Virus record (IMG/VR): IMGVR_UViG_2935054407_000001
Coordinates: 1-64,000 of that record
Direction: 5' to 3' (one strand)
Source: a virus
Taxonomy: Duplodnaviria; Caudoviricetes
Length of the DNA stretch: 64,000 nt
Positions 12,863-58,683 of this stretch are shown in pieces (position 1 is the first letter of the stretch; every line of letters starts with the position of its first letter). Below the pieces are notes generated by a model. The model saw only the letters and a program-made list of their open reading frames with translations, was not told the DNA's origin and searched no databases. A program made the position numbers and the translations under genes.

Positions 12863-12930
12863 GAGCCTAGCACCAAAATACCGGTCTGAAAGACGCCTTC
12901 CAGACCGGCATTCAGGCACTTCCAGGAGCG

Positions 12931-13149
12931 TCAGGCGTTGCGCTTCGCGTCCAGCTCGTCCTGCTTCTTGCGGCGGGCCGGGTGGATCTTCTCCGAGATC
13001 ACCAGCCGGTACTTCGTACGCTTCTTGCACGGCTGGTCCCTGACCGCACCGCACCAGGGCACAGGGCACATGACCTCGACGTGCTCGAATCGAGCCGCCT
13101 GGCTCTTGACCCTGATCACTCCCATACCGGGCAGTCTACCGGCAGGCAC
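12931..13149 (-). CDS. Small Zn-finger protein
   Basis: CPVPWCGA..QPC...HPAR. Confidence 0.6.
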   Translation of the reverse strand: MPAGRLPGMGVIRVKSQAARFEHVEVMCPVPWCGAVRDQPCKKRTKYRLVISEKIHPARRKKQDELDAKRNA

Positions 13150-13192
13150 GGTGATCGGTCAGCCCGGATTTCCTGCGCCGTCCTGCACAGGC

Positions 13193-13855
13193 TCAGGAAG
13201 CAGGACAGCGATCGAACGGGCGTTTGTCGTCCAGCCGGACCACGAGCTGGTGGGCGAGCGTCATGGGATGCCGGGAGTACTCCTCGAAGCTGACGAAGAC
13301 GTTCTTGGCCTGGCGCACCGGATACCCGCGCCAATTCGGCTCGAAGACGTCCCCCAGCACGCCGACCGGCTCGGCGTGCCTCACCCAGAAGACCTCGGAC
13401 GCCTCCCGCACCTTCGGGCACTGCTCACGGGCGACCGGCATACAGCGCACGCACGTGGGAGGGGCATTCGTGCCTTTGAGACCGCCGCCGATGGGCTGGT
13501 AGGTCGTTGGAGTGACGATCCACGGAATCAGCCCATTGTCCGGATCCGTCGCAGGCAGGCTGCACACCTGGCACAGATCTCGCTCCATGGCGAGGAACTG
13601 CCGCCGGGTGTTCATCTTGCGCCACAGCGGCTTGCCCTTGTAGCTCTGGCGGACCCGAGCGCGAAGGAGCGTGCCGTCCACGATCCAATCGCTCCGGCGC
13701 GGGCGGCGGTAGGAAAGACGATCCCTACCCATGGCCCGGCTTTTGGTGAAGACGAGATCTGCTGTCACGCCTTCGTCAGCATGGGCGAGCACCCACGGCA
13801 CCCGCAGATCTCCTTGGTACTGGACGAAAGGAGCCTCACGGAGTGCTTGATCCAT
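13193..13855 (-). CDS. Cys-rich hypothetical protein
   Basis: RRQFLAMERDLCQVC, PPTCVRC...CP motifs. Confidence 0.7.
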   Translation of the reverse strand: MDQALREAPFVQYQGDLRVPWVLAHADEGVTADLVFTKSRAMGRDRLSYRRPRRSDWIVDGTLLRARVRQSYKGKPLWRKMNTRRQFLAMERDLCQVCSLPATDPDNGLIPWIVTPTTYQPIGGGLKGTNAPPTCVRCMPVAREQCPKVREASEVFWVRHAEPVGVLGDVFEPNWRGYPVRQAKNVFVSFEEYSRHPMTLAHQLVVRLDDKRPFDRCPAS

Positions 13856-13856
13856 C

Positions 13857-14327
13857 TCAGGAGCCCGCTAAATTGAGCCGGAACCAGAACGCCCGGCCGA
13901 TCCCCTGGACATGATCAGTGCCCCACTCGCGCGAAAGCTGGTGTACCAGGGCCAGCCCCCGCCCGCCGAGATCTTCGTCCTCCGCCGGTCGCATGGCGGG
14001 CACGTTGACGAGCGATCCCGGATCGATGACCTCGATGTGGATCATTTCGCGGTTGACGCCGACGCCTACCGTGATCAGCCTGTCGGGATCATTGCTGGGG
14101 TCGGCGTAGAGGTGGCTGTTCGTGACGACCTCGCTCACCAGCAGCTCGGCCGTTTCCAGCAGCTCGCCCGAGACACCGTGTGCGCGCAGCAGATCGACCG
14201 CCCAGTGACGCGCCAGGCCCGGCGTCTGCGCGTTGTCGCAGGTGAAGTGGCGCATCCCGATGCACATCCCTTGCCAGCGCAAGAGCATCGATGATGCCGC
14301 TATGTAGATGTCGTCCCTGGTCATCAT
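13857..14327 (-). CDS. HATPase_c ATP-binding protein (anti-sigma/AbaA-like)
   Basis: LLVSEVVTNSHLY, IEVIDPG, GGRGLALVHQLSREWG. Confidence 0.9.
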   Translation of the reverse strand: MMTRDDIYIAASSMLLRWQGMCIGMRHFTCDNAQTPGLARHWAVDLLRAHGVSGELLETAELLVSEVVTNSHLYADPSNDPDRLITVGVGVNREMIHIEVIDPGSLVNVPAMRPAEDEDLGGRGLALVHQLSREWGTDHVQGIGRAFWFRLNLAGS

Positions 14328-14653
14328 CGCGTCGCCACCTCGTATATCTTCTGCGCCGCGTTGTCGGCCAGGGCGTCGATGCGCTGCATGTGGCCCCTCC
14401 CCCACGAGAAGAACCACTGGCCGGAGAAGAGCATCGCGTACACCCGCAACGTCTCCACCGGGAGCATCACCGCCAGGCGAGGATCCTTTTTCAGCGGAAG
14501 CTCCACCCGCGTCTCCAGCCCCAGGTCCCGAAGGTCCCAGGCCAGCCGTATGAGGTGTGTGTACTGCTCTTCCGCCTCTGTCGGTACCGTCCTGGGTACA
14601 GTGCTTTCGGTCGGCATGGATCGCACCTCCGGCGAGTGGTCAAGGTCCGTCAA
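14324..14653 (-). CDS. Hypothetical protein
   Basis: Coupled to the HATPase gene. Confidence 0.65.
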   Translation of the reverse strand: MTDLDHSPEVRSMPTESTVPRTVPTEAEEQYTHLIRLAWDLRDLGLETRVELPLKKDPRLAVMLPVETLRVYAMLFSGQWFFSWGRGHMQRIDALADNAAQKIYEVATR

Positions 14654-14811
14654 TCACCTGGTCAGCGGCTTGGCGGAGCACTTTTGAAATCGGGGGGAAT
14701 CGAGTGAACTGCGCGGATTGCGTGACCTTCTCCCACGGCTGATGGCATAGACGTAGGCCGGATCGGCTCATTCGCCTGCCGAATTCCGTAAGAGCAGTCA
14801 AGCTCTATGCC

Positions 14812-14848
14812 ATGATGCACACGTGAAGACGCACATGCAACGGCGCAT
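14812..14848 (-). promoter_or_regulatory. Promoter/operator TTGCAT-N17-CATCAT
   Basis: 19/21 identical to the element at 16023-16043. Confidence 0.55.
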
Positions 14849-14883
14849 CAACAACTCGCAAGAAAAACCGCTACCCTGGGCGC

Positions 14884-15765
14884 GTGGCAGCACGCGACAA
14901 GGCCCCGACACTGCGACTGCGGCGCTTCGCCTCCCGGCTTCGTGAGCTGCGGGAGGCCGCCGACATGTCGCCTACGGAAGTAGCGGAGCAGACCCAGATC
15001 AACCGGGCAACACTGTTCCGGATCGAAGGCGCGAAGGTGCGACCCCAAGCGCGGACGCTTCAAGCACTCCTCGACGCGTACGACGCTCCCCCGGAAGACC
15101 GTGAGTCACTGCGCGCACTTCTCAAGGCCGCAGCGGACCAAACGTGGCTCCAGACGGCAGCGTCCCTGCCGAAGGAGTACGCCACCTTCATCGGCTTTGA
15201 GTCTGAAGCCGAAAAAGTGAGCACCTACGAGCCCTTGGCCGTGCCCGGACTGCTTCAGACCGAGGACTACGCGCGGGCCATGATCAAGGGCACGGATCCC
15301 AGCCTGGCGCGCGATGAGGTCGAAAGCCGCGTCGCCGCCCGGTTGGAGCGTCAGCACCTCCTCACGCGGACCGATCCGAGCCCGCTGATGCTCTGGGCCG
15401 TGATGGACGAGTCGTCCCTGCTTCGGGAGGTCGGCGGCCGTCAGGTCATGGCCGAGCAGATGGCCAAGCTCCTAGAGGCAGCCGAAGAGCCCAACGTCAC
15501 AATCCAGGTGATTCCTCGGAGCGTTGGGGCTTACCCTGGCATGCACGGGGCGTTCGTCATCCTCGAATTCCCTGATGAAGGCCACGATGTCGTCTACATC
15601 GAGGGCAGTACAAGCACACTGTTCCTGGAGAACAAAGCGGACATCAGGGAATATAGAGTTCTAATTGAGCATCTACGGGCCGCAGCCGACGGTCCGGACG
15701 CAACACGGGCACTGCTGGCCAAGGCCCAACGGAAATGGAAGGAGGGCGGGCATGACGAAGCGTGA
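14884..15765 (+). CDS. XRE-family HTH regulator with DUF5753 domain (WhiJ/Scr1-like)
   Basis: LRELREAADMSPTEVA...; VPGLLQTEDYARA; RVAARLERQ; VVYIEG. Confidence 0.92.
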   Translation: MAARDKAPTLRLRRFASRLRELREAADMSPTEVAEQTQINRATLFRIEGAKVRPQARTLQALLDAYDAPPEDRESLRALLKAAADQTWLQTAASLPKEYATFIGFESEAEKVSTYEPLAVPGLLQTEDYARAMIKGTDPSLARDEVESRVAARLERQHLLTRTDPSPLMLWAVMDESSLLREVGGRQVMAEQMAKLLEAAEEPNVTIQVIPRSVGAYPGMHGAFVILEFPDEGHDVVYIEGSTSTLFLENKADIREYRVLIEHLRAAADGPDATRALLAKAQRKWKEGGHDEA

Positions 15766-15949
15766 CCTGTCCGACGCCAAATGGCGCAAAAGCTCGCGGA
15801 GTCAGCAGGGCAACTGCGTGGAGGTTGCCACCAACCTCCCCGGCCTCGTGGCTGTACGGGACAGCAAGGACCCTACCGGTCCGGCGCTGGTCTTCCCGCC
15901 CGGCGCATGGGCTGCCTTCACCCGCGCCATCCGGCACGGAGATTTGTGA
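15752..15949 (+). CDS. DUF397 (BldB-like) protein
   Basis: WRKSSRS...NCVEVA...VAVRDSKDPTGPAL. Confidence 0.92.
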   Translation: MTKRDLSDAKWRKSSRSQQGNCVEVATNLPGLVAVRDSKDPTGPALVFPPGAWAAFTRAIRHGDL

Positions 15950-15972
15950 TCACTCTCTGACAACGCTCTCGT

Positions 15973-16010
15973 TGGAGCCCCCGTCTATGTGACGGGGGCT
16001 CCAACTTTTT
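15973..16010 (+). terminator. Intrinsic terminator
   Basis: tggagcccccgtc-tatgt-gacgggggctcca followed by a T run. Confidence 0.75.
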
Positions 16011-16095
16011 GCCACGATGCGCATGCGCCGTTGCATACGCGTCGTTGCCGTGCCATCGTAAGGGCAGACAACCCCGCAGAGAGAAAGGATCCACG

Positions 16096-16377
16096 ATGGA
16101 CCTCAGCGTTGCCCCGTGGCGCAAGAGCGGTCGCAGCACCAGTGGCAACTGCGTGGAAGTGACGGTCGTCCCCGGCAGCCCGGAGGTCGCCGAGCACAAG
16201 GCCGACGCCGATCTGCTCTTCCTCGTCCGCGACTCCAAGGACCCGAACGGCCCGAAGCTGGCGTTCACCCGGAGCGAGTGGGACGCCTTCGTCGGCGGCG
16301 TGAAGGACGGCGAGTTCGACGGCCCGGCTTCGGGCGTCATCTCCAAGACCGACGATCGCGAAGTTTGCAACGCGTGA
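16096..16377 (+). CDS. Second DUF397 protein
   Basis: WRKSGRSTSGNCVEV...VRDSKDPNGPKLAFTRSEWDAFVGGVKDGEFD. Confidence 0.92.
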   Translation: MDLSVAPWRKSGRSTSGNCVEVTVVPGSPEVAEHKADADLLFLVRDSKDPNGPKLAFTRSEWDAFVGGVKDGEFDGPASGVISKTDDREVCNA

Positions 16378-16846: not shown

Positions 16847-16976
16847 GGTCACAACGCTAGGAGGCCGCAGGGGCGGCAGGCCAGCGGCAAGCGGGTACTG
16901 CAAGAAAATGCAACGCACCCCAGCCCGTCTTTCACACAGGTAGACAGGTCGTCGGGCATGCACTAAGGTCTTCCAC

Positions 16977-17585
16977 ATGGCTAACCAGTCTAACCAGGCT
17001 AACCAACATCCGACCTATACGGAGATCGCTGACGGGCTGCGGCGCCTGATCCTCAACGGCGTCCTGGAGCCAGGCCAGCAGCTCCATCCCATCAGGGAAA
17101 TGGCTGCGAAGAACGGTGTCTCCCTAGGCACGATGAAGAACGCTCTCTCCCTCCTGCGAAACGAGGGCCTCGTAGAAGGCCACCCTGGCAAGGCGGTCTA
17201 CGTCTGCTCGACGCTCGCCATCCGCAAGGTCCTCACCGAGGAGGAGCAGGCAGCGGCGGCCGAGGCGGTCCGCGCAGCGCTGACTGCGGCCGGGTACGCC
17301 ATTCCAGCGCCGTCGCCAGAAATGACCGACACCGCAGCGCAGGTCTTTGTGACCGAGGACGAGACGGTGGATGTCGAGTTCACCGATAGCCCGTGGACGT
17401 ACACGCTGGTGTCTAACGTCTGGCACGTGCCCGCTGGCGAGGCCGGGGACTACATCCAGAAGGATTTCGGCGAGGTGGACGACCCTGAGGCAGTGGTGGC
17501 CCTCGTCAACTGGTGGATTCAGAAGCGTTATCGGGAGATCGAGGCGGAGAACGCACGGACCGACACACCGAAGGAGAACGCGTGA
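16977..17585 (+). CDS. GntR-family HTH regulator
   Basis: YTEIADGLRRLILNGVLEPGQQLHPIREMAAKNGVSLGTMKNALSLLRNEGLV. Confidence 0.85.
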   Translation: MANQSNQANQHPTYTEIADGLRRLILNGVLEPGQQLHPIREMAAKNGVSLGTMKNALSLLRNEGLVEGHPGKAVYVCSTLAIRKVLTEEEQAAAAEAVRAALTAAGYAIPAPSPEMTDTAAQVFVTEDETVDVEFTDSPWTYTLVSNVWHVPAGEAGDYIQKDFGEVDDPEAVVALVNWWIQKRYREIEAENARTDTPKENA

Positions 17586-23448: not shown

Positions 23449-23530
23449 GTCGCTCCTGTGTGAAAGACGGGATGCGTACACTCTGCCGTGCCGGTGTGAA
23501 AGACGCAAGCGCACGCATCCCGCCCAGCAG

Positions 23531-23998
23531 CTACGCCTCCAGCTCGACGTCCACGCCCAGCTCCAGCAGCTCGGCCTTGAGGTCCTTCAGGGAATCGGCC
23601 AGGCCCTCCATCTCATCCCTCGCCTCCGCGATGGTCTCGCGGTCCTCCTCATTCTCGATCCACGTACCGGCGTGCTCCGAGAAGGACTCCGCCACCTCGG
23701 TGAACTCGCCCAGCTTCTCTTCGATCGAGCCCAGGTCGGCCGTCAGGTTGGCCAAGGCCGTCAGGTGCCCGGCGATCTGCGGGAAGATGCCGCCCAGCTC
23801 CTCCAGTGCCTCGGCCTGCTCAACGAGGCTGGCCAGCTCCGCCTGGGAGAGCGACTGGAGCTGACCCTGACGCGTCTCCGCGTGGCCGGACCAGGTCTCG
23901 ATGTCGGCCTTCAGTTCCTCTGCTTCCGAGCGGCTGTACTTCTTCCCGAGCGCGACCTTCTCCAGAATCGTGAGCGGGGCCTTCTTGGTCGTAGGCAT
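23531..23998 (-). CDS. Acidic helical hypothetical protein
   Basis: MPTTKKAP... with GGAG RBS. Confidence 0.65.
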   Translation of the reverse strand: MPTTKKAPLTILEKVALGKKYSRSEAEELKADIETWSGHAETRQGQLQSLSQAELASLVEQAEALEELGGIFPQIAGHLTALANLTADLGSIEEKLGEFTEVAESFSEHAGTWIENEEDRETIAEARDEMEGLADSLKDLKAELLELGVDVELEA

Positions 23999-24247
23999 GC
24001 GAAATAGCTCCTGTCGCCAGGTGGTCTTTTGGGATGCCTCCATTCTCCCAGCCCTGGCCGACCGCAGCAACCGACCTCCGACGAGTGTCTACGCAGGTCA
24101 GGACCCCTTTTTCGAGCCTTCAGACGTGCTTGTGGGCCTTATTTAAGGGTTATCCCAGCGTAGAAGGGGCCGCTACGCCGTCGAAAGGCGGTCGCGAGCC
24201 TCTTAATTAAGCCCGCAGTGCACCAAAGCCCTTTTGTAACAGTCGGG

Positions 24248-24789: not shown

Positions 24790-25002
24790 TCACCAGAACC
24801 GGAGACTGAAGCGCGAACCGCCATCTCCGGTGTCCTCTGGCGCGATCACGTCCTGCTGGTCCGGCTCCCCGAACCGCTCGACCATCGACGTATAGGCGCT
24901 CGCCAGTTCCGGAGCGTCTGGCGGGAAGACTCCCCAGCTTTGCACCGTCGCCGTACCGTCCTCGGCGTATCGAACGAACATGATGCGGGTTCCTGGTTGC
25001 AT
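24790..25002 (-). CDS. Hypothetical protein
   Basis: First gene left of the non-coding block. Confidence 0.5.
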   Translation of the reverse strand: MQPGTRIMFVRYAEDGTATVQSWGVFPPDAPELASAYTSMVERFGEPDQQDVIAPEDTGDGGSRFSLRFW

Positions 25003-25023
25003 GCGACGTATCCTATCCCACCG

Positions 25024-25078
25024 AATTAGATCTAATTAATTCAATTAGCCCAATTAATTCAATTAATTAGATTAATTG
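25024..25078. repeat. AT-rich AATT tandem tract
   Basis: aattagatctaattaattcaattagcccaattaattcaattaattagattaattg in a GC-rich genome. Confidence 0.85.
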
Positions 25079-26037: not shown

Positions 26038-26066
26038 TTGACATCTATACTCGAAACGAGGATAGT
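26038..26066 (+). promoter_or_regulatory. Housekeeping-sigma promoter of the rightward operon
   Basis: TTGACA-N17-GATAGT with AT-rich upstream region. Confidence 0.8.
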
Positions 26067-26071
26067 TCTCG

Positions 26072-26910: not shown

Positions 26911-26930
26911 ATCACAGAAAGGCGGAATAC

Positions 26931-27104: not shown

Positions 27105-27112
27105 GTAGTAAC

Positions 27113-27179
27113 GGCGAAACGCGCGTCTTTCAGACAGGCACGCGTCGTACGTGATTGGTCATCACGTGCCTGATGAGCC
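27113..27179 (+). ncRNA. Type II hammerhead ribozyme HH1 (predicted cleavage after 27146)
   Basis: ggc-GAAAC-stemIII-GUC-gtacgtgat/atcacgtgc-CUGAUGA-gcc. Confidence 0.92.
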
Positions 27180-27220
27180 AAACCGGACTCACAGAGACGA
27201 CACAGAATGAGGGCGACCAA

Positions 27221-27454: not shown

Positions 27455-27561
27455 CCTTCTCCCGCGTTTCCCTGTGTGCTAGCGTCTTTCACACCGGCAG
27501 GCGCTAGCACACCCTTCACACGCTCTGACCTGGCTTCACTGTGCCTGAGAGGCAACCAATC

Positions 27562-27870: not shown

Positions 27871-27874
27871 ACAA

Positions 27875-27945
27875 GCCGAAACATGCGTCCTTCACACCGG
27901 GAGACGCGTGTCGTACGGGACTGATCGCCCGTGCCTGAGGATGGC
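27875..27945 (+). ncRNA. Type II hammerhead ribozyme HH2 (predicted cleavage after 27912)
   Basis: gcc-GAAAC-atgcgtc/gacgcgt-GUC-gtacggg/cccgtgc-CUGAGGA-tggc. Confidence 0.9.
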
Positions 27946-27982
27946 AGATCCCCATCACCACACACAGAAAGACGGTACAACC

Positions 27983-28567: not shown

Positions 28568-28568
28568 A

Positions 28569-28640
28569 GGCGAAACGCACGTCTTTCACACCGGGAGACG
28601 TGTGTCGTACGTGGGTGGTGCCCGCGTGCCTGATGATGCC
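28569..28640 (+). ncRNA. Type II hammerhead ribozyme HH3 (predicted cleavage after 28606)
   Basis: ggc-GAAAC-gcacgtct/agacgtgt-GUC-gtacgtggg/cccgcgtgc-CUGAUGA-tgcc. Confidence 0.9.
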
Positions 28641-28681
28641 AAACCGGACTCACAGCCATCACACAGAAAGACGGTAAACAC

Positions 28682-29788: not shown

Positions 29789-29882
29789 GCGGTTCGTTGG
29801 GCACGCGTCTTTCACACCGGGAGACGCGTGTCCTTCAATCCGATGTGACGTCGGTACCTCCCCCAGAAAGGCGGCTCTAACG

Positions 29883-30155: not shown

Positions 30156-30157
30156 CC

Positions 30158-30426: not shown

Positions 30427-30582
30427 ATGCTCATGGCCCCCCGCAACCGTGGCCGTGTCGGATTCTCCGGCTGCGAATTCACCTGCTGCCCGATCTGGTC
30501 GAACAAGCGGCGCGAGCGGCGCCACATCCGGCGTAGGGAGCGCCAGACGGTTAACCGGATGCTCGTCGCTCTCGACTACTAG
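30427..30582 (+). CDS. 51-aa basic peptide absent from the ORF track
   Basis: CACAGAAAGGCGG RBS; MLMAPRNRGRVGFSGCEFTCCPIWSNKRRERRHIRRRERQ... Confidence 0.65.
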   Translation: MLMAPRNRGRVGFSGCEFTCCPIWSNKRRERRHIRRRERQTVNRMLVALDY

Positions 30583-30643
30583 CCGAAACGCACGCTACGG
30601 CGTGCGTCGTACCGGGATTGGTTACCCGGTACCTGATGACGGC
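30582..30643 (+). ncRNA. Type II hammerhead ribozyme HH4 (predicted cleavage after 30608)
   Basis: gcc-GAAAC-gcacgc(UACG)gcgtgc-GUC-gtaccggg/cccggtac-CUGAUGA-cggc. Confidence 0.95.
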
Positions 30644-30676
30644 AGACCACCGTTAACACACAGAAAGGCGGGAGAT

Positions 30677-31207: not shown

Positions 31208-31347
31208 GCGACGGATCCGATCCGGTCTAGGCGAGCTAGGGGGATGTGCGGACACGCGCCGTGCCTCCCTCAGTTCGATGTGACATCGGACTGCTTAAAC
31301 CCCCATGCGTCTTTCACACAGGCACGGCGCAACACAGAAAGGCGGCT

Positions 31348-31947: not shown

Positions 31948-32379
31948 ATGCCGTACACGGCACATGGTCACTGGTTTGGCGACGGTGAGCCCACCGGGCC
32001 TAGGCCGGACAGGGTCACACGGTGCAACGGACTGCACGGGTGCCCGCAATGCAAGATGGATGCCGAGCTGGTCTCGATGCTCGCGAGTCCTAAAAAGGGA
32101 ATCGCTCTCAAGTTCGGTGACCAAATTTCGAACGGTGCTCACGTGCTGGCCTACACCGGCATCCACAGCAGCACGAGGATCACACGCGCGGTTGCGCTGT
32201 GCTGGTGTCCAACGCGGAAAGAGTTCGTGATCTGGACCATCGAATACGGATACGCCGACCAGGGCGAAGCCTGGTACGCACACAACGGCCACCGCGCGGG
32301 ACAAGACCTCGCCTATGCCCTGCTGAGCTATACGCAGCAGGCCGGTCCCGGCGCCTCTCTCCCGAATTTCATCTACTAG
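31948..32379 (+). CDS. Hypothetical early protein
   Basis: RBS; RCNGLHGCPQC. Confidence 0.7.
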   Translation: MPYTAHGHWFGDGEPTGPRPDRVTRCNGLHGCPQCKMDAELVSMLASPKKGIALKFGDQISNGAHVLAYTGIHSSTRITRAVALCWCPTRKEFVIWTIEYGYADQGEAWYAHNGHRAGQDLAYALLSYTQQAGPGASLPNFIY

Positions 32380-32450
32380 GCGAAACGCGCGTCTTTCACA
32401 CCGGTAGGCGCGCGTCGCGTCGGGAGTCGTTACCCGATGCCTGATGAGCC
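32379..32450 (+). ncRNA. Type II hammerhead ribozyme HH5 (predicted cleavage after 32416)
   Basis: ggc-GAAAC-gcgcgtct/aggcgcgc-GUC-gcgtcggg/cccgatgc-CUGAUGA-gcc. Confidence 0.93.
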
Positions 32451-32478
32451 AGACCACACAGAAAGAGGGCACAGACCC

Positions 32479-33497: not shown

Positions 33498-33499
33498 TG

Positions 33500-34207: not shown

Positions 34208-36918
34208 ATGGACATCCCCGCTCTCCTCGTACGCATGGCGCGCAGCGTTCCCCGGCACGACAATGCCCGAATGATTATGTGGACGGCACACGAGGCGGTG
34301 AACAACACGTCTGACCTGGTGGATGGTGCACGGGCAGCGCTGGCGTACGTGTCAACGCACATCGGCGATGCTCCCGGACAGTCCAGGGATGAGCTGCTAA
34401 ATGACGCGGTTGCGGTGCTCTCCCTACATCTGGCGCTGCACACCATCGCCGAAAAGTACAAGTAAGGGAAAGGCGGGAGTAATGCCAGAGCGGCGCAAGG
34501 CGACCACGAAATACACGCTCGTACAGCACAGCGGGAGCACATCGCATGCGGAATTCCGGCACGCGGTAGAAGTGCTCTCCGTCTCGACGCTCACGGAACA
34601 GGACAAGATCGAAAAGGTCGGCGGCCTGCTGTTCGAGAGCTGGGAGGAGGCGGACAACAGGGAGTACGAGGAGAACTACCCGCCGGGGGTTACCGGGCTC
34701 TACCCGCGCGTGCCCGGCACGTTCCGGACCGATCTGAAAATCGATGGGTTCAACCTCTACATCCCCGCTGCGAAGAACGACACGGAAGGCCAGTGACCAT
34801 GCCTCTTACCGCCCCCGAAAAGCGAGCCATCAAGCGGGCTTACCGCTGTGTCGTGATGCTGAACGAGCACACGCCGGAATGGCGCGGAATGGTGGACAAG
34901 GACACCCTTGCCATGCATCACACGAGCCGCTGTGTGTTCGGCCAGGTGTTCGGCGACTTCAACGAAGGGATCGACGTGCTGTCCCTGCACGGTTGCGACG
35001 AACCGCAGCGCTACGGGCTGGATCTCGACGTGAGGAACGACGTCATGTACCCCGTGCTGGACACCGCCTGGCGGATCGTGCTTGACCACCTGGACGCGCG
35101 GTCGGCCTAGCGGATCCTCTGGTCCCCATGCCTGCCAAATATCGGGGGCGGGCATGGGCGGCCGGGGCGTCCGCTTGGACGATCACCACCACACACACAC
35201 AGAAAGGCGGGAGATGGGAAGGCACAGCAGGAACCGATCGCCGTACCCGGCCAGCAGCACGACCCCTGACCGCTCACAGGTCACGGAATCTGAGAGCGAG
35301 GCTCTCGTCCGGCTCGCTGCTCTGGTCTGTCACAACATCGCTACCGGCTTCGCTCCGGAGCGGGCTGTGGAGGCGGCTCTCCGTTCCTTCGACGACCCCG
35401 AAAGCGTGGTCGAGCTGTGGGCAGCGGTCTGGGAGCGCATCAAATCTGAAGACACCGAAAGGCGGTAGAACCATGACCTACAACCACGCACGCATGACGG
35501 ACGCGGATCGCGCTAGGAACACCCGCACCATCACGAACAGGCTCATCCATGCATGGGAGATCATGAAGGCCACGGGTCCGGTTTCTGGCCCAGCCGACTA
35601 CTACACTGGGATGTCCACCGCGTACGAGGCGTTCACCGGCTGCAACCCCGTAGCGCTGTCGATGGCGCTGGACGACAACCGGAAGCGCCACGGCAATCTG
35701 TCGCTCTCCGATCGGGCTGACAAGCTGATCGAGTCCTTGTCTCTGGCCGAGGTCTTCCCCTACCTCAAGGACGGGGACGCGTGATGACTGCATACGAGAT
35801 CGCTGCTCGGGCCGCTTTCTTCGCCTCCCAGCGCGCGACACAGGCGACCGTGGCAGAGCTGCACAGGTGGGAGCGCGCGGCTCGGCGCTCTGGCAACCGC
35901 GAGCACGTCAAGGAGATCCGGCGCGAGGTGAGGCGCATTCGCGCTACCAAGCGGCTCTCTCTCATCAAGCACGGCGGCGCGTGGGCCTGCTTCGACAACC
36001 GCACGGGGTCAGTCTGCGAGACCTTCGCTTACCGCATGGACGGCGCGACCTACGTCGAGTACTGGAACGGCCAGTACCACAAGCACACGTCCTAGCGGAT
36101 CCTCCGATCACCGCGCGTCTTTCACACCGGTAGAGATGCGCGGCCGGTCGGGGCGTCCGCTGGGGCGATCACGACCAACACACACAGAAAGGCGGGAGAT
36201 CTATGCGCTTCTCCTACATCAACGAGGACTACATGCGCGAGCGGTGGCCGGTCGGCTGCCGAGCACGGCTCAAGAGCCTTCCGGGGAACTCGACCACCCT
36301 GACGATCGCCCCGCACGCGGAGACGAACTCCCCCTACAACCTCCGCTACTCGACGCGGACCAAGAGCGGTCCGGCGGTCAACATCACCTACCCGAAGTAC
36401 TGGCGGAACCGCAAGGGCGGCTGGGTGTTCGCCGCAGCGCTCCGACTGATCGGTAAGTGCGCTGACGGTACGTGCAACCACGCGGAAAGGCGGTAGATCC
36501 GCGTGCACTGTGACCGTTGCGGCCGAGAGCTGCGGGCCTGGCCGTTGGAGCGCGGAAGCCGTTGCAGCCCCAAGCGGTGGACGTACTGCATCAGGCCGAA
36601 GAGCGACTGAGACTCCCCAACCGCACACAGAAAGGCGGTAGTTCCACCATGCCTAAGATCCTGATCGCCACCGACAAGGCTCCGCAGAGCAGCGTCCCCA
36701 ACGTGCGCGGGATGAACTGGGTGGCCCGTCGCGCCGCCATCATCCGCGCGGCCTTCCACCTGGAGAGGCAGGAGCGGGCCGTGCGGGCGCTGATGGCGAT
36801 GACCTTCGACGGCGACGAGCGGATCAAGCTCAAGGCCCTGCTCCAGCAGATCCAGGCGGACATCCGGAGCATCCACGTCTACGCCAAGGCCGGTTATCCG
36901 TCTGTCCGGGAGATCTGA
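34208..36918 (+). other. Run of small early genes (34208-34465, 34482-34796, 34793-35110, 35214-35468, 35473-35784, 35781-36095, 36203-36496, 36503-36610, 36649-36918)
   Basis: Most preceded by GAAAG(G/A)CGG; 36503-36610 is a 35-aa Cys peptide absent from the ORF track. Confidence 0.7.
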
Positions 36919-44856: not shown

Positions 44857-44889
44857 AAAAGCCCCGGCTTCGCGCCGGGGCTTTTTTTT
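44855..44889. terminator. Bidirectional intrinsic terminator
   Basis: aaaaagccccggc-ttcgc-gccggggcttttttt at the convergence of the two arms. Confidence 0.9.
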
Positions 44890-51745: not shown

Positions 51746-52131
51746 TGCCGGTACTCCTCAACGAATTCGGGCAGCTCCAGCTCGTCCACGACGTGGGTGG
51801 CGGGGTCGCGGTCGTGCCCGGTGAGGCCGTTGCCGTGGCGCGGGCGGGCGGGGACGGGCTCAGGCATAGATGCTCCTAACGCATGCCGGTGTGAAAGACG
51901 GTTAGCGGACGCCAGAGGTGCGCCGGGAGACGCGGAATTCGATGGCAGTGGGGGCGGAAACGGCGCCGTCACGGTTCGGCGTGGAGTCGTATTCCGCGCC
52001 CTCACGGACGCCCTTAGCGAGACTGGCGTTCATGGATCGCGGCTGCGGATAACTCACGTCCGACCCCTTCCATTGCTGACGATGAAACGTACAAGCAATA
52101 GATTATGGGGACGGATCAGACTTTTTATAAT

Positions 52132-56126: not shown

Positions 56127-56211
56127 GTGATTTTCCTTGTGATCTTCGACTGGTGCGCCTGTGTGAAAGACAGGGCCGCGCACGCGCGGCGCATGCGCGG
56201 CCCTGGTCGCG

Positions 56212-56547
56212 CTACTCCACGACGGTGAGGTTCGACAGGACGGAGATGGTCACGGTGGCAGCCTGGTAGCGCCAGTTGTTGCCCTGCGAGCGGCGCTCCG
56301 GCTTGACGGTGACCTTGGTGACGGGCTTGCTGACGAGGTTGTCGCCATCCCAGGAGTAGCCCTGGCGCGTGACGATCTTGGTGACCTCGCCCTCCACCAT
56401 GCGCAGGCCGTTGCCGTACTCGGACGGGTAGAGGACCTTGCTGCCGATGGTGATGTCCTTGCCACGCCAGTCCTTGAAGACGAGCTGAATCTCCACAGTG
56501 GGCTCAGGGGCGACCTTGTGCGTGGGGGCGTCGGTGTTGAAAAACAT
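56212..56547 (-). CDS. Hypothetical phage protein
   Basis: AAGGAG RBS; KDWRGKDITIGSKVLYP. Confidence 0.65.
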   Translation of the reverse strand: MFFNTDAPTHKVAPEPTVEIQLVFKDWRGKDITIGSKVLYPSEYGNGLRMVEGEVTKIVTRQGYSWDGDNLVSKPVTKVTVKPERRSQGNNWRYQAATVTISVLSNLTVVE

Positions 56548-56561
56548 TGTCAGTTCTCCTT

Positions 56562-57248
56562 TTAGAGCATGTCCGCGAAAACGGACGGGCTGGTCTCGGA
56601 CAGAGCGGTGAGCGCCATTTGCGCGAACTGCTGGATTTCGGCGTCGGCGGAGGGGTCGATACGGCGGGCGATGACCTCGCGCCAGGCCCGGAAATTGCCG
56701 GTGACGACCAGCTCGACGGGCGTCATGTTCGGCAGGACGCTGCGGGCGGCTTCGCGCGCCTGCTTGCGCGGCAGCCCTTTCTTGGTCAGGTCGAAGACCA
56801 GGGAGTCATACCAGCCCTTCATCTCCTGGTAGCGGGTGAGGAGGGCGCTGGTCAGCTCCAGGTCTTCCTGGATGGCGGGCGGGATGACGGGGACGTTCTC
56901 GGGCGAGCAGTAGCGCTGGCTGATCACGGAGAAGCTCAGGTGGCGGTGGCGGGTCAGCTCAGCCAGCAGCGAGCGGGAGACGCCTTCCACGTACAGTGAG
57001 GCGGAGGAGTGCTCCAGGACCGACAGGTGGCCCTGGGAGATGATGTGGGCGATGTAGTCGGCGTTCTTCTGGGTGGCCGGGTTCTTCTTCTCCCAGCTCT
57101 GGTAACAGAGCCTTCCTGCGTACTCGATCAGCGCTTCGGTGTCCTTGGGGTAGCCGCCCTCAGGAACAGAACTGATCCAGCCGTATCCGAGCTTGTCGTC
57201 CACGACCTCGCCTTCGAGGCGAGTGATGGCAATCAGTGTGACTTCCAA
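56562..57248 (-). CDS. thyX: Flavin-dependent thymidylate synthase
   Basis: GHLSVLEH, ELTRHRHLSFSVISQRY, REAARSVLPN. Confidence 0.95.
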   Translation of the reverse strand: MEVTLIAITRLEGEVVDDKLGYGWISSVPEGGYPKDTEALIEYAGRLCYQSWEKKNPATQKNADYIAHIISQGHLSVLEHSSASLYVEGVSRSLLAELTRHRHLSFSVISQRYCSPENVPVIPPAIQEDLELTSALLTRYQEMKGWYDSLVFDLTKKGLPRKQAREAARSVLPNMTPVELVVTGNFRAWREVIARRIDPSADAEIQQFAQMALTALSETSPSVFADML

Positions 57249-57260
57249 TTTGTGCTCCAG

Positions 57261-57839
57261 TTAGTTGTTCCAGCGGTGATTTCTGGCCTCGCGATCTGCT
57301 CGGCCGGTTCTTCGGGTGAGTTCGCGGGAAACGAGGAAACAGTCCCGTTCCAGGGAGTCATGAATCGTCTCTGTGAGCTTGCGGACGGCGTAGGCGGCTG
57401 TTGCGGAATTGCGGGCCTCTACGACGTCGGGGTCTTCATCGGCTTTGGCCTTTGCAGCGGAGACCGATTTCTCGGCTTTGCCGTTGATGAGAACCCGAGC
57501 CCGGCGCACGTCCAGCTCTGCCTCTGCGTCCTTCTCATCGATCGCCGCCAATGCCAGTTGGCTCCCGGCGTAGGCGACCCATGCGTTGAGGAGGCTGAAC
57601 AGCTCCATCAGCGCGCCGTCCGACAGCTCCGTCAGGTCCTTCGGCAGTCGCGGCCGGGACTCGTCGGGCTGCTCGGGCAGCTCCAGTCCGGCTCTTGCCA
57701 GCGCGAGCCGTGCCTGCCGGTTGGCCTGGCTGGTCTGCTCCGGCGGGTTCTGTGTTCGGCTGATCCGGCGCAACGTCGCTCCAACAGCGGGAGAAGTAGG
57801 GGCAGTCGGTGCAGGTCTTGGAATCGCGGGCGAACTCAC
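57261..57839 (-). CDS. Helical phage protein (possible recombination mediator)
   Basis: LPKDLTELSD...LVSRELTRR; start uncertain; overlaps the nuclease ORF. Confidence 0.65.
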   Translation of the reverse strand: MSSPAIPRPAPTAPTSPAVGATLRRISRTQNPPEQTSQANRQARLALARAGLELPEQPDESRPRLPKDLTELSDGALMELFSLLNAWVAYAGSQLALAAIDEKDAEAELDVRRARVLINGKAEKSVSAAKAKADEDPDVVEARNSATAAYAVRKLTETIHDSLERDCFLVSRELTRRTGRADREARNHRWNN

Positions 57840-58683
57840 GCGCCGGAATCATGCCGGTGTGAAAGACGGCTTCCTTGATCGAGGTGGCCTTCTCAAGCAG
57901 CGGCTCGACGACGGCCATGTCCAGCGAGATCGCGAATTCCTTGACGGCCTGGTTGCTCTTGTACTCATACAAAAAGGTCCCGCGCCGGACCCCCAGGCCC
58001 ATGAGGCGCATCGTGATGTAGAGGTAGATCTGGAGCTGGCGGACGTGCGACGGCAGCGGCTCCTGAAGGTCGGCCCACAGGCCGTCCAGGTCGTAGAGCT
58101 TCTTCCCAGCCTCATCGCTGGCGAAATACCACTCCTTGAGCACCTCGGGCGCGTCCATGCGAAGCGTTCCCATGCCGATGGTCTTGATCTCGATCAGCCG
58201 GGCCTTCTCCAGAAGCATGCCGTCGGAGTGGCCCTCGATCAGGAATTCCTTCTCGGCCCGGATCGGCACCTCGGCATACGTCACCGCGAAGGACCAGCAG
58301 CGCGGACACTGCTTGGGGTCAAGACGCAGGTCGGTGACATGGCCACAGTGCAGGCACTTCCACTGGCCATACAGGTCGCCGCTCAGCCTCAGCCAATTCT
58401 GCCATTTGTCATGCAGAGCGTGGCCGGTGGCGAAAATGCTCTCCATCTGGAAGTTGAAATCTGGCCGGGCAGGCATCTTGCCAGCGCGGGCATCCACGAT
58501 CCGGTAGTACGTGGAGCGGGCGCACCAATCATCCTTGGCCATCTCGGAGGGGTGGATGACGTCGGCACGCCGGTCGGTCGGCTTGAGCAGCTCGGCCGCG
58601 ACGTTCTCTGAGATGTCTCCCAGGACGTCCCAGTGCGTTCCCTTGCGCCTGCTGATCTCGGCGAGAGTGCCGCTCAGCTTTAT
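57535..58683 (-). CDS. Cas4/RecB-like PD-(D/E)XK exonuclease
   Basis: HPSEM..WC.R, GHSDG, IEIKT, QLQIY, CTDCPYFSRC; start uncertain. Confidence 0.85.
   Translation of the reverse strand: MKLSGTLAEISRRKGTHWDVLGDISENVAAELLKPTDRRADVIHPSEMAKDDWCARSTYYRIVDARAGKMPARPDFNFQMESIFATGHALHDKWQNWLRLSGDLYGQWKCLHCGHVTDLRLDPKQCPRCWSFAVTYAEVPIRAEKEFLIEGHSDGMLLEKARLIEIKTIGMGTLRMDAPEVLKEWYFASDEAGKKLYDLDGLWADLQEPLPSHVRQLQIYLYITMRLMGLGVRRGTFLYEYKSNQAVKEFAISLDMAVVEPLLEKATSIKEAVFHTGMIPAREFARDSKTCTDCPYFSRCWSDVAPDQPNTEPAGADQPGQPAGTARAGKSRTGAARAARRVPAATAEGPDGAVGRRADGAVQPPQRMGRLRREPTGIGGDR

What the first reader, a model, noticed from the sequence alone, without database searches (positions are those of the whole stretch)
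12881..57868. Asymmetric ~15-nt motif GTCTTTCACAC(C/A)GG, 15 copies, always co-oriented with transcription
Seen on plus at 16926, 27123, 27482, 27885, 28580, 29805, 31307, 32389 and 36115; on minus at 12881, 23455, 23491, 51886, 56158 and 57854 (up to one mismatch). The strand always matches local gene direction. Nearly all copies are intergenic and many sit in a hairpin loop, including stem III of four hammerheads. Established: mycobacteriophage L5-type stoperators are asymmetric, transcription-oriented repressor sites. Inference: this is either a stoperator-like DNA site or an RNA loop bound by a protein (nut/boxB-like), which could make the ribozymes protein-regulated.
Basis: partly seen in the sequence, partly recalled or inferred. 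Interest (0 to 1): 0.8.

Follow-up and report, generated by a model that had tools for sequence, protein, structure and literature searches.

The report
Phage-specific oriented regulator-site array
A 109-kb actinobacterial phage carries 18 copies of one strictly conserved, one-way 17-letter signal between (and sometimes inside) its genes, and a sister prophage carries a different version of the signal at the same places, which marks it as the docking site of a phage-made regulator, most likely a transcription-blocking repressor.

Summary
GTCTTTCACACMGG (up to 1 mismatch) occurs 15 times in the window (0.04 expected) and 18 times in the 108,967-b phage record, always co-oriented with local transcription. 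The conserved unit is 17 nt: C-GTCTTTCACACMGG-N-A.

Fourteen copies are intergenic and 4 lie inside genes. Four sit at the tip of stem III of type II hammerheads.

The key new result is a sister prophage (about 78% nt identity, Nonomuraea genome). It has a different variant, CGTCT[CA][CT]C[TA]AACCGGGA, at 14 of our 18 positions, including hammerhead loops and coding sequence. All 12 exact copies in that 12.4-Mb genome lie inside the prophage.

The sites therefore co-evolve with a phage-encoded factor. Two copies point to DNA-level reading. One abuts the -35 box of a conserved leaderless promoter of a GntR gene. A back-to-back pair sits between convergent genes.

Strong hairpins surround only the early-operon copies, and similar hairpins without the motif also follow stop codons there.

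Best reading (about 0.5): a stoperator-like operator array. Candidate binders are a two-HTH protein beside the integrase or the GntR protein.

Main rival (about 0.27): an RNA hairpin-tip protein site, which would make the ribozymes protein-responsive. No binding data exist.

The parts
12880..12895 (-). Motif copy (G9 variant, CGTCTTTCAGACCGGTA). It lies 36 nt after the stop of the minus-strand zinc-finger gene, between convergent genes.
   Evidence: 26.6 bits. The orthologous copy in G004 carries the G004 variant.
12894..12910 (+). Degenerate back-to-back partner copy (CGCCTTCCAGACCGGCA). It overlaps the previous copy by CG and faces the incoming plus-strand gene 12457-12870.
   Evidence: 12.0 bits. 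In G004 the partner is a good copy with 1 mismatch. Together the two copies form an 8-14-bp palindrome.
16926..16942 (+). Motif copy directly abutting the -35 box of the GntR-gene promoter.
   Evidence: The orthologue in G004 is CGTTTCTCTAACCGGTA.
16941..16976 (+). Predicted sigma-70-type leaderless promoter: -35 TAGACA (16941-16946), 17-nt spacer, -10 TAAGGT (16964-16969), then 7 nt to the ATG at 16977.
   Evidence: Read from the sequence. The same layout is conserved in G004, with TAGACA-17-TAGAGT-7-ATG. This is an inference; the consensus scanner was not run on this stretch.
16977..17585 (+). GntR-family winged-HTH protein (202 aa). It is the second candidate for the cognate factor.
   Evidence: Pfam GntR 1.8e-13. 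The G004 orthologue is 67% identical over the N-terminal 78 aa and its C-terminal part is strongly diverged.
8487..8903 (-). Two-HTH protein (128-138 aa) beside the tyrosine integrase. It is the leading candidate for the cognate factor.
   Evidence: Two HTH motifs (Pfam). The AF2 model shows two three-helix domains joined by a linker. Fold neighbours are bipartite monomeric DNA binders, with weak scores. Only 3 homologues were found. The recognition helix of HTH1 is identical to that of the G004 orthologue; that of HTH2 differs.
23454..23469 (-). Motif copy overlapping the Shine-Dalgarno sequence, 6 nt before an ATG. It is the second of a tandem pair.
   Evidence: 25.2 bits. The associated gene has no counterpart in G001.
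23490..23505 (-). Motif copy at the tip of a long hairpin, 26 nt after the stop of gene 23531-24070.
   Evidence: 17 enclosing pairs; 0 of 200 flank shuffles reached this.
27112..27183 (+). Type II hammerhead HH1 with a motif copy (27124-27140, G9 variant) at the tip of stem III.
   Evidence: 27.6 bits, below the gathering score of 37. The G001 orthologue at 5675-5749 carries the G001 variant.
27483..27499 (+). Motif copy at the tip of a stand-alone 14-bp hairpin, 29 nt after a stop codon.
   Evidence: z -6.2. The orthologue G001 6053 has the same outer stem with the G001 variant.
27874..27953 (+). Type II hammerhead HH2 with a motif copy (27886-27902) at the tip of stem III.
   Evidence: 37.2 bits. 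The G001 orthologue at 6453-6531 carries the G001 variant.
28568..28644 (+). Type II hammerhead HH3 with a motif copy (28580-28596) at the tip of stem III.
   Evidence: 33.5 bits, below the gathering score.
29806..29822 (+). Motif copy at the tip of a stand-alone hairpin, 18 nt after the stop of the DUF932 gene.
   Evidence: z -5.8. The orthologue G001 7734 has a different but still paired outer stem.
30581..30651 (+). Type II hammerhead HH4 without the motif (short stem III loop). It serves as an internal contrast.
   Evidence: 49.2 bits. The G001 orthologue at 8710-8779 also lacks the motif.
31308..31324 (+). Motif copy in an intergenic region with a weak hairpin, 25 nt before the next start codon.
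   Evidence: The orthologue is G001 9637.
32378..32458 (+). Type II hammerhead HH5 with a motif copy (32390-32406) at the tip of stem III.
   Evidence: 42.4 bits.
36116..36132 (+). Motif copy at the tip of a stand-alone hairpin, 21 nt after a stop codon.
   Evidence: z -2.9. The orthologue is G001 14082.
51885..51900 (-). Motif copy 18 nt upstream of the Shine-Dalgarno sequence of a small conserved gene, upstream of the endolysin gene.
   Evidence: The orthologue is G001 28656.
56157..56172 (-). Motif copy 40 nt after a stop codon. It is the only copy with T instead of C at position 0.
   Evidence: 25.1 bits. G001 has a variant copy at about 33571.
57853..57868 (-). Intragenic motif copy inside the Cas4-like exonuclease gene. 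It encodes AVFHTG.
   Evidence: The orthologue G001 35544 carries the G001 variant, giving AVYQTG at the same place.

Best explanation
The motif is the recognition site of a sequence-specific regulator encoded by the phage itself. It is most likely read as double-stranded DNA and works like a stoperator array.

Proposed mechanism (all of it inferred):
- In the lysogen a repressor occupies about 18 one-way sites.
- One site abuts the -35 box of a promoter and acts as an operator.
- The others lie just downstream of genes, or inside genes where no spacer exists. There they stop RNA polymerase that reads through, in an orientation-dependent way.
- Between convergent genes, two opposed copies stop traffic from both sides.

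The most plausible reader is the small two-HTH protein next to the integrase, a bipartite monomer suited to an asymmetric 17-bp site. The GntR protein, whose promoter carries a site, is the alternative.

The hairpins and hammerhead stem III that hold the early-operon copies are taken to be separate RNA-level features: transcript processing and 3'-end hairpins. Their tips tolerate the insert.

Shown by analysis: the copies, their orientation, their restriction to the phage, and their concerted change between two phages. Not shown: any binding, the DNA-versus-RNA choice, the identity of the factor, and the blocking effect.
For: (1) There are 18 strong copies and a clear gap to the next PWM scores. 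All 18 are co-oriented with transcription through four strand switches.

(2) A sister prophage (G001/G004; about 78% nt identity, collinear) has a different variant at 14 of our 18 positions. These include 2 hammerhead loops and 4 coding-sequence copies that change the encoded residues.

(3) All 12 exact matches to the sister variant in 12.4 Mb lie within the 74-kb prophage interval. Our variant, at <=1 mismatch, gives 4 hits in that genome (0 exact), 2 in 8.3 Mb of G054 and 0 in phage BRock.

(4) Copy 16927 abuts a -35/-10/leaderless-ATG arrangement that is conserved in both phages. It would therefore lie upstream of the transcript.

(5) A back-to-back pair lies between convergent genes in both phages, with no downstream gene to serve.

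(6) The four intragenic copies lack hairpins.

(7) Strong hairpins without the motif also follow stop codons in the same operon, at 31232, 35120, 38622, 39838, 42522 and 44846.

(8) In G001 the degenerate positions (5, 6, 8) lie between two invariant blocks about one helical turn apart.

(9) The two-HTH protein is present in both motif-bearing phages. It was not found by tblastn in motif-less G054. Its first recognition helix is identical between the phages and its second differs, which parallels the conserved CGTCT half and the variable half of the site. Its fold neighbours are bipartite monomeric DNA binders.

(10) Published precedent comes from passages I read. L5-type repressors bind more than 20 asymmetric 13-mers in one orientation, at promoters and in short intergenic spaces, through two DNA-binding domains in one monomer (PMC9283540). 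Motif and repressor co-vary among cluster A phages, and a site sits upstream of the repressor gene (PMC6550527). R4-type stoperators exist in Streptomyces phages (PMC10276819).
Against: - Seven of 9 early-operon copies sit exactly at the tip of strong hairpins or hammerhead stem III. These fold better on the sense strand than on the antisense strand because of G-U pairs. L5 stoperators show no such context: 1 of 17 has z<-2.
- The outer stems differ between paralogues and orthologues yet stay paired.
- The motif can itself form a mini-hairpin. The 5' arm is GUCUUUC, the loop is 5 nt, and the 3' arm is GG-N-A-N-R. All 3 exceptions at position 16 across both phages are G, which still pairs with U.
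- No copy overlaps the two sigma-70-like divergent promoters predicted at 25.2 and 26.0 kb.
- PHROGs and Pfam named no L5-gp71-type immunity repressor, and a PDB sequence search of the two-HTH protein found nothing.
- The fold matches of the two-HTH protein are weak (E 0.02-0.1; model pLDDT 68).
- Only two genomes carry the system, so the parallel between protein and site rests on one comparison.
Confidence: 0.5

Rival explanations
1. The motif acts in RNA. It forms the tip of a hairpin (5' arm GUCUUUC, pentaloop ACACM, 3' arm GGNANR) that is extended by variable outer stems or by hammerhead stem III. A phage-specific RNA-binding protein recognises it, in the manner of N-boxB, Nun-boxB or coat-protein operators. 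Binding would control read-through, the stability of the upstream message (after hammerhead cleavage the hairpin is its 3' end) or ribozyme folding.
For: - The motif sits at the exact tip of strong hairpins or stem III in 4 of 5 hammerheads here, 2 of 3 in G001, and several stand-alone hairpins.
- z<-2 in 7 of 18 copies here and 7 of 13 in G001.
- The sense strand is more stable than the antisense strand.
- Outer stems differ between orthologues but remain paired, for example 29807 against G001 7734 and HH2 against G001 6466.
- A16 and R18 can pair with U4 and U2, and position 6 in G001 is always C or U opposite G14.
- Orientation with transcription follows automatically.
- A ProQ-C-like protein gene (22763-23128) lies just downstream of the tandem copies.
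Against: - Eight to 10 copies, including all 4 conserved intragenic ones, have no significant hairpin.
- In the convergent-junction pair the motif is buried in a long duplex with its own reverse complement in both phages.
- Copy 16927 lies upstream of the predicted transcription start.
- Position 17 (partner of C3) is G in only 9 of 18 copies, and position 15 is mostly a pyrimidine opposite U5.
- In G001 position 5 is A opposite G15 in about half of the copies.
- Hairpins without the motif are common after stop codons.
- No RNA-binding factor was identified.
Confidence: 0.27
2. The motif is a compact single-block promoter for a phage-specific RNA polymerase or sigma factor, like T7-type promoters. 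Transcription would start near A16/R18.
For: - It is one asymmetric block of about 17 nt that points with transcription and lies mostly upstream of genes.
- Its central part is phage-specific between conserved ends.
- Purines are conserved at positions 16 and 18.
Against: - No RNA polymerase or dedicated sigma was named among the proteins scanned: 81 by Pfam, and 39 plus 37 by PHROGs. Unknown proteins remain.
- The convergent-junction copies have no downstream gene.
- Copy 71567 lies in codons 4-9 of the primase gene, so a start there would truncate it.
- Copies sit 11-29 nt after stop codons rather than at a fixed distance from start codons.
- A promoter in the stem III loop would yield a broken ribozyme.
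Confidence: 0.05
3. The motif is an anti-ribosome-binding-site element. Its CGUCUUUC pairs with the early-gene ribosome-binding site GAAAGRCG and masks translation until hammerhead cleavage separates them.
For: About 18 early genes share ACACACAGAAAGRCGG before the ATG, and GAAAGACG is the exact complement of the motif's first 8 nt.
Against: - G001 keeps the same ribosome-binding-site consensus (k-mer counts), but its motif arm (CGUCUCCC, CGUCUACC) is no longer complementary.
- Minus-strand copies precede genes with other Shine-Dalgarno sequences.
- Intragenic and convergent copies have no such partner.
Confidence: 0.03
4. The motif serves some other DNA transaction tied to strand, such as Chi-like nuclease control, priming or replication polarity, site-specific nicking, or a target of the phage's DpdA deazaguanine DNA modification.
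For: - The motif is strand-asymmetric and over-represented.
- The phage encodes DpdA and a TGT-like enzyme.
- CCGG is invariant in both variants.
Against: - Orientation flips four times and each flip coincides with a flip of gene direction. That does not fit one or two replication arms.
- At 17 nt the motif is far longer than known Chi or modification contexts (recalled, not tested).
- Host-enzyme signals would not switch between sister phages of related hosts.
Confidence: 0.07

Closest known systems
Repressor-stoperator systems of cluster A mycobacteriophages (L5, Bxb1, TipsytheTRex) and of Streptomyces phage R4
   Same: Shared features:
- many copies (18 here; more than 20 in L5) of a short asymmetric site spread over the genome;
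- one orientation relative to transcription;
- mostly short intergenic spaces, plus a copy at a promoter;
- a site variant that differs between related phages, as expected for immunity specificity;
- a candidate small monomeric binder with two HTH-type domains.
Sources are passages of PMC9283540, PMC6550527 and PMC10276819. My own scan of L5 found 17 sites in the first 50 kb, all on the strand opposite to the genes as the consensus is usually written.
   Different: - The site sequence is unrelated and longer (17 nt against 13).
- No homologue of the L5 repressor was recognised.
- No copy lies at the predicted divergent early promoters.
- Copies follow stop codons rather than preceding start codons.
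- Half of the copies sit at hairpin tips, four of them inside hammerhead ribozymes, which L5 sites do not (1 of 17 with z<-2).
- The host phage is a 109-kb myovirus-like genome of a Nonomuraea-type host.
Lambdoid N-nut (boxB) and HK022 Nun-boxB systems
   Same: Shared features:
- an RNA hairpin with a 5-nt loop carrying the specificity;
- phage-specific variants that co-evolve with a phage protein;
- action on transcription elongation.
The lambdoid facts are recalled, not checked in a paper here.
   Different: - There are 18 dispersed copies instead of one or two promoter-proximal sites.
- No adjacent boxA-like block was found within +-60 nt.
- Many copies lack a hairpin.
- No N-like protein was identified.
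Clusters of type II hammerhead ribozymes flanking prophage genes (Perreault et al. 2011, PMC3088659, passages read)
   Same: Several Hammerhead_II ribozymes lie between early genes of a prophage-type genome, presumably cutting a long transcript into gene-length messages.
   Different: Four of 5 ribozymes here (2 of 3 in G001) carry a genome-specific 17-nt site as an insertion of about 12 nt in the stem III loop. In the passages I read, that paper only speculates that phage hammerheads might be regulated.
Start-associated sequences (SAS/ESAS) of cluster K mycobacteriophages (PMC3203893; seen in a search listing only, details recalled)
   Same: Both are asymmetric repeated intergenic motifs oriented with transcription in an actinophage. 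The early-gene ribosome-binding-site block ACACACAGAAAGRCGG noticed here is the closer analogue.
   Different: The motif studied here is not at a fixed short distance from start codons. Gaps to the next start are 6-87 nt, and some copies have no downstream gene.

Membership tests
L5-type stoperator/operator array | Short asymmetric (non-palindromic) site | tested here: met
   The site has 17 positions, 15 of them specified. There is only partial dyad symmetry (GTCT...AGAC).
L5-type stoperator/operator array | Many copies dispersed over the phage genome and not in the host | tested here: met
   18 copies in 109 kb. For the sister variant, 12 of 12 exact hits in 12.4 Mb lie in the prophage. Background for our variant is 4 hits in 12.4 Mb and 2 in 8.3 Mb, at <=1 mismatch.
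L5-type stoperator/operator array | Single orientation relative to transcription | tested here: met
   18 of 18 copies here and all G001/G004 copies examined. One weak 15.7-bit match at 22296 is anti-oriented.
L5-type stoperator/operator array | Mostly in short intergenic spaces | tested here: met
   14 of 18 copies are intergenic. The 4 intragenic copies lie in operons with overlapping genes.
L5-type stoperator/operator array | A copy acting as operator at the early lytic promoter and/or upstream of the repressor gene | tested here: inconclusive
   One copy abuts the -35 box of a predicted, conserved promoter of a GntR gene. No copy lies at the sigma-70-like sites at 25.2 and 26.0 kb. All promoters are predictions.
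L5-type stoperator/operator array | Cognate repressor homologous to L5 gp71 (N-terminal HTH plus Stoperator domain) | tested here: not met
   No such family was named by Pfam or PHROGs for the proteins scanned. The two-HTH candidate has no PDB sequence match at E<=10. It is an architectural analogue only. Not every small ORF was scanned.
L5-type stoperator/operator array | Repressor binding and orientation-dependent block of elongation | not testable with these tools
   This needs EMSA, reporter assays and lysogen transcript mapping. No RNA run holds the region.
boxB/nut-type RNA site | Conserved hairpin with a small loop in the transcript | tested here: inconclusive
   A mini-hairpin with a 5-nt loop is possible in most copies, but pairs 3-17 and 5-15 are often mismatched. 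Strong enclosing hairpins occur in only 7 of 18 copies.
boxB/nut-type RNA site | One or two promoter-proximal sites per operon with an adjacent boxA | tested here: not met
   There are 9 copies in the 9-kb early operon and others throughout. No second conserved block occurs within +-60 nt.
Hammerhead ribozyme, type II (RF02276) | Match to the covariance model with an intact core (CUGAUGA, GAAA, GUC) | tested here: met
   Three matches reach the gathering score (49.2, 42.4, 37.2 bits). Two fall below it (33.5, 27.6 bits) but have the core present. HH2 has CUGAGGA. Cleavage was not tested.
Single-subunit-RNAP (T7-like) promoter | Phage-encoded cognate RNA polymerase and a downstream transcription unit for each copy | tested here: not met
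   No RNAP family was named. The convergent-junction copies have no downstream gene.

The most novel reading that the evidence does not exclude
The 17-nt unit is read in RNA. A phage-specific protein docks on the tip of stem III of four natural type II hammerheads and on look-alike hairpins after other genes. Ribozyme cleavage, read-through and the fate of each early message would then be set by one phage regulator whose specificity has switched between sister phages. This would be a natural protein-responsive hammerhead system and an 'RNA stoperator'.
Probability: 0.25. Interest if true: 0.85.

Novelty: new variant of a known kind. Interest (0 to 1): 0.62.

Why it matters
If the DNA reading is right, stoperator-type genome-wide silencing is not confined to siphoviruses of Mycobacterium and Streptomyces. 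It has arisen with an unrelated site, and probably an unrelated two-HTH or GntR-type binder, in a large myovirus-like temperate phage of Streptosporangiales.

The two sister phages then form a ready-made natural specificity swap. There are 14 orthologous sites and a handful of residue changes in the candidates, which suits a dissection of how such a system changes immunity.

If the RNA reading is right, these would be the first natural hammerheads with a dedicated protein-binding module. That bears on the long-open question of what bacterial and phage hammerheads are for.

Either way, the sites give a compact, orthogonal protein-nucleic-acid pair.

Tried and rejected
- **tRNA-anticodon-loop mimicry (UUCACAC as a 7-nt loop; link to DpdA/TGT).** Dropped. 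The consistent fold is a 5-nt loop, and G001 changes those letters.
- **Anti-RBS pairing.** Rejected, because the complementarity is not conserved in G001.
- **ECF-type or sigma-70-type promoter with the motif as the -10 or -35 box.** No second block at a fixed distance, except the separate promoter at 16941-16976.
- **Exact motif in IMG/VR.** Of the 112 loci fetched, 110 have a single copy. The two loci with 2 copies are tandem duplications inside a coding sequence of an unrelated element.
- **megablast of 26-38 kb against INPHARED phages.** No match.
- **DUF932 protein against IMG/VR.** No relative found.
- **Nearest cultured phages.** Streptomyces phage BRock and kin have a major capsid protein about 65% identical. 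BRock positions 1-50,000 have no Rfam match at E<=1 and show sigma-70-like repeats instead. BRock has no motif copy.
- **G054 contig C45 (major capsid protein 68% identical by tblastn, 73%).** It has no comparable motif and one hammerhead with a short stem III loop.
- **Hammerhead-plus-motif-frame pattern.** Only G001 matched in IMG/VR. The 15 metagenome matches lack complementary stem III arms by eye and look like chance.
- **RNA evidence.** No RNA holder is listed for 26600-36500; one DNA run only.
- **Literature string search for the motif.** 21 papers matched; none of the 10 listed is about phages or bacterial regulation.
- **Supplementary tables of PMC10276819 (R4 stoperator sequences).** Not available, so I could not compare the R4 site with this one.
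- **Alignment of 15 hairpin copies without gaps.** It gave only a weak consensus (-1.64 kcal/mol) because the 3' arms start at different offsets.

Full report
**1. The observation**

Plus-strand copies start 1-2 nt later than reported. Shuffles expected 0.04, and none of 100 reached 15.

The window is the first 64 kb of a 108,967-b virus record, rated complete. The whole record has 18 copies, 9 on each strand, and the reversed-pattern control gives none.

Aligning the 18 copies shows that the conserved unit is longer than reported. C precedes the motif in 17 of 18. Position 16 is A in 16 of 18 and G in the other two. Position 18 is a purine in 17 of 18. No other block is conserved within 60 nt on either side.

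A weight-matrix scan gives 25-33 bits for the 18 copies. After a gap come 15.7 bits (22296+), 12.0 bits (12894+) and 8.4 bits.

**2. The genome**

Pfam and PHROGs scans show a large tailed phage of an actinobacterium.

| Region | Content |
|---|---|
| 84-108 kb | sheath, tube, tape measure, major capsid protein, large terminase |
| 44.9-76 kb, minus strand | DNA polymerase, primase, DnaB, RecA, ribonucleotide reductase, ThyX, Cas4-like exonuclease, endolysin |
| 26.9-44.9 kb, plus strand | early operon of small genes, with DUF932, DpdA and an ArdA-like protein |
| 5-20 kb | lysogeny/regulator module: tyrosine integrase, two-HTH protein, Lsr2, LuxR-type, zinc finger, WhiJ-like trio, GntR |

- The nearest cultured phages are Streptomyces phage BRock and kin, with a major capsid protein about 65% identical.
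- All 18 copies lie on the strand of the local genes, through four switches of direction.
- Fourteen copies are intergenic. Several apparent overlaps are over-long ORF calls, judged from ribosome-binding sites and from the sister genome.
- Four copies are inside genes: 57854 in the exonuclease, 71567 in codons 4-9 of the primase, 74609 in a replication-initiator-like gene, and 85269 in the C-terminal tail of a conserved 79-aa ORF.
- In the early operon the copies lie 11-29 nt after the preceding stop codon (one at 101 nt). They lie 25-87 nt before the next start.

**3. Hammerheads and hairpins**

Rfam finds five type II hammerheads on the plus strand between 27.1 and 32.5 kb. Three reach the gathering score and two fall below it.

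In four of them the motif is an insertion of about 12 nt in the stem III loop. The fifth (30581-30651) has a short loop and no motif.

Folding each copy with flanks shows the following.

- The motif can itself form a small hairpin: 5' arm GUCUUUC, 5-nt loop ACACM, 3' arm GG-N-A-N-R.
- In the early operon this hairpin is extended by outer stems of 8-12 pairs.
- Against shuffled flanks, z is below -2 for 7 of 18 copies. These are six early-operon copies (27484, 27887, 28581, 29807, 32391, 36117) and 12881. Copy 23491 has z -1.9.
- These hairpins are 3-10 kcal/mol more stable on the sense strand than on the antisense strand, through G-U pairs.
- The late and intragenic copies show no hairpin signal.
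- As a control I located L5 stoperators, using the 13-mer consensus recalled from memory, in the fetched L5 record. Only 1 of 17 has z<-2.
- A scan of the early operon shows equally strong hairpins without the motif directly after other stop codons: 31232, 35120, 38622, 39838, 42522, and the U-tailed terminator at 44846.

Post-stop hairpins are therefore a general feature of this operon. The motif occupies the tip of some of them.

**4. The sister prophage**

A search with the major capsid protein found IMG/VR record G001 (90,284 b, provirus, 96% identical capsid protein). It is collinear with our phage at about 78% nucleotide identity.

G001 has no copy of our motif. At the orthologous places it has another one, CGTCT[CA][CT]C[TA]AACCGGGA. 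These places include:

- the stem III loops of two of its three hammerheads;
- the stand-alone hairpins;
- the exonuclease codons (AVYQTG instead of AVFHTG), the primase codons, and the two other intragenic sites.

The same prophage lies in a 12.4-Mb genome, G004, whose record title is Nonomuraea sp. SYSU D8015. All 12 exact matches to the G001-type pattern fall in one 74-kb interval, the prophage.

Our own variant, at up to one mismatch, occurs as follows:

| Genome | Size | Hits |
|---|---|---|
| G004 | 12.4 Mb | 4 (none exact) |
| G054 | 8.3 Mb | 2 |
| BRock | 112.5 kb | 0 |

The G004 flank shows that the prophage continues to the left of the IMG/VR boundary. That part carries homologues of our 5-20 kb module.

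In all, 14 of our 18 copies have a positional orthologue with the other variant. The four without one are the tandem pair 23455/23491, HH3 (28581) and HH5 (32391). They lie beside genes or ribozymes that G001 lacks.

A more distant relative, G054 contig C45, and BRock lack both the motif and the module's regulators.

A genome-wide, position-by-position change of a 17-nt signal between sister phages, including inside coding sequence, means selection by a trans-acting factor of changed specificity. That factor must be phage-encoded.

**5. Two informative copies**

(a) Copy 16927 is followed at once by TAGACA, then 17 nt, TAAGGT, 7 nt and the ATG of the GntR gene. G004 has its own variant of the motif followed by TAGACA, 17 nt, TAGAGT, 7 nt and ATG. 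I read this as a conserved leaderless sigma-70-type promoter. That is an inference from the usual actinobacterial -10 form, TANNNT. On this reading the motif lies upstream of the transcript, as an operator would.

(b) Copy 12881 has a degenerate partner on the other strand, overlapping it by two bases. In G004 both partners are good copies. The pair lies between convergent genes, and each copy faces the incoming gene. There is no downstream gene to promote or translate. In RNA, each motif would be buried in a long duplex with the complement of its partner. This fits a stop signal for traffic from both sides, and it fits reading of the sequence in duplex DNA.

**6. Candidate factor**

Beside the integrase lies a 128-138-aa protein with two HTH motifs.

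- Only three homologues exist among 5.8 billion proteins: ours, the G004 one, and one from another Nonomuraea genome.
- The AF2 model (pLDDT 68) has two three-helix domains joined by a flexible linker.
- Its best PDB neighbours, with weak scores (E 0.02-0.1), are bipartite monomeric DNA binders of asymmetric sites: Mos1 and Tc3 transposase DNA-binding domains, SETMAR, the AraC DNA-binding domain, tandem homeodomains and Pax. The protein atlas gives only generic tandem-HTH neighbours.
- Between our phage and G004 the first recognition helix is identical and the second differs at three residues. This parallels the invariant CGTCT half and the changed second half of the site.

This is suggestive but rests on one comparison.

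The GntR protein is the other candidate. Its promoter carries a site, as the repressor gene does in cluster A phages (PMC6550527, passage read). Its winged HTH is 67% identical to its orthologue.

No L5-gp71-type repressor was recognised.

**7. Weighing**

For a DNA-level, stoperator-like array:
- the common denominator of all 18 copies is the sequence, not a structure;
- the promoter copy and the convergent pair (section 5);
- the conserved intragenic copies without hairpins;
- hairpins without the motif in the same operon;
- in G001, two invariant blocks about one helical turn apart with degenerate positions between them;
- a plausible bipartite binder;
- close published precedent (PMC9283540, PMC6550527, PMC10276819; passages read).

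For an RNA-level site:
- the exact placement at hairpin tips and in stem III;
- sense-strand-specific stability;
- outer stems that differ yet stay paired;
- A16 and R18 can pair with U4 and U2, and the only exceptions at position 16 are G.

I put the DNA reading at about 0.5 and the RNA reading at about 0.27. The remainder is spread over a compact promoter, other strand-tied DNA functions and the anti-RBS idea, which the G001 comparison contradicts.

That the sites bind a co-evolving phage factor and act on transcription or transcripts seems much more certain, about 0.8.

No RNA data exist for the region, so nothing here shows binding or effect.

**8. Novelty**

Arrays of oriented asymmetric repressor sites are known in cluster A mycobacteriophages and in R4-like Streptomyces phages. 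Clusters of hammerheads in prophages are known too (PMC3088659).

New here:
- an unrelated site, and probably an unrelated binder, in a large myovirus-like phage of a Nonomuraea-type host;
- the documented site-by-site switch between two sister phages;
- the embedding of the site in hammerhead stem III loops.

A full-text search for the motif string found 21 papers; none of the 10 listed is about phages or bacterial regulation. The R4 site sequences are in a supplement I could not open.

Noticed in passing
window 26917-37720 (+), e.g. 27960-27978, 28659-28677, 30406-30424, 36180-36198: About 18 early genes share an extended ribosome-binding block, ACACACAGAAAGRCGG-N4-8-ATG. G001 has the same block. 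Part of it is complementary to the 3' tail of 16S rRNA as I recall it.
   Followed up: partly
window 25000-26930: About 1.9 kb has no convincing ORF and a lower G+C (0.58-0.60). It holds sigma-70-like divergent promoter matches at 26038-26066 (+) and 25248-25219 (-), a motif half-site CGTCTTTCAG at 26621, and a hammerhead-like remnant near 26872. It is partly conserved in G001 3.8-5.3 kb. It may be a control region or a non-coding RNA.
   Followed up: partly
window 36919-37692 (+) and 44931-46385 (-): DpdA (Pfam 6e-64) and a TGT-like protein (PHROG queuine tRNA-ribosyltransferase) are present. The phage probably puts 7-deazaguanine into its DNA. BRock and G001 have the TGT-like gene too.
   Followed up: no
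window 13857-16377: A WhiJ-like trio typical of Streptomyces chromosomes sits inside the phage's regulator module: a HATPase_c_2 protein, an XRE-DUF5753 regulator and a DUF397 protein. The G004 counterparts are only about 27% identical.
   Followed up: no
window 32830-32897 and 33500-33567: A 68-nt direct repeat, 96% identical, lies at the starts of two neighbouring paralogous genes. Each copy holds a very stable hairpin (-25 to -31 kcal/mol).
   Followed up: no
window 44826-44887 (+): A canonical U-tailed intrinsic terminator lies at the end of the plus-strand early operon. It gave a sub-threshold SorX match, which is probably just the terminator. This shows that the phage uses ordinary terminators where it needs them.
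   Followed up: no
window 1-5400 and record 107.8-109 kb versus G004 636.5-638 kb and G001 86.5-89 kb: Relative to the G004 prophage, the blocks homologous to our 2907-5310 and 107804-108784 are swapped and inverted. Our record also has an extra integrase, tRNA-Pro (1640-1715) and a PD-(D/E)XK gene between them. This looks like the attachment region seen in a different state, or an inversion.
   Followed up: partly
L136 10094-11274 (G054 contig C45, about 50.1-51.3 kb): The more distant relative carries an array of about 15 tRNA genes and a palindromic 12-mer (GGTATCGATACC) in 4 near-exact copies, plus 3 weaker matches. It has no copy of the motif studied here.
   Followed up: no
window 22763-23128 (-): A protein with a phage ProQ-C-terminal-like domain (Pfam 2.9e-07) is encoded just downstream of the tandem motif copies. 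It could be an RNA binder but was not examined.
   Followed up: no
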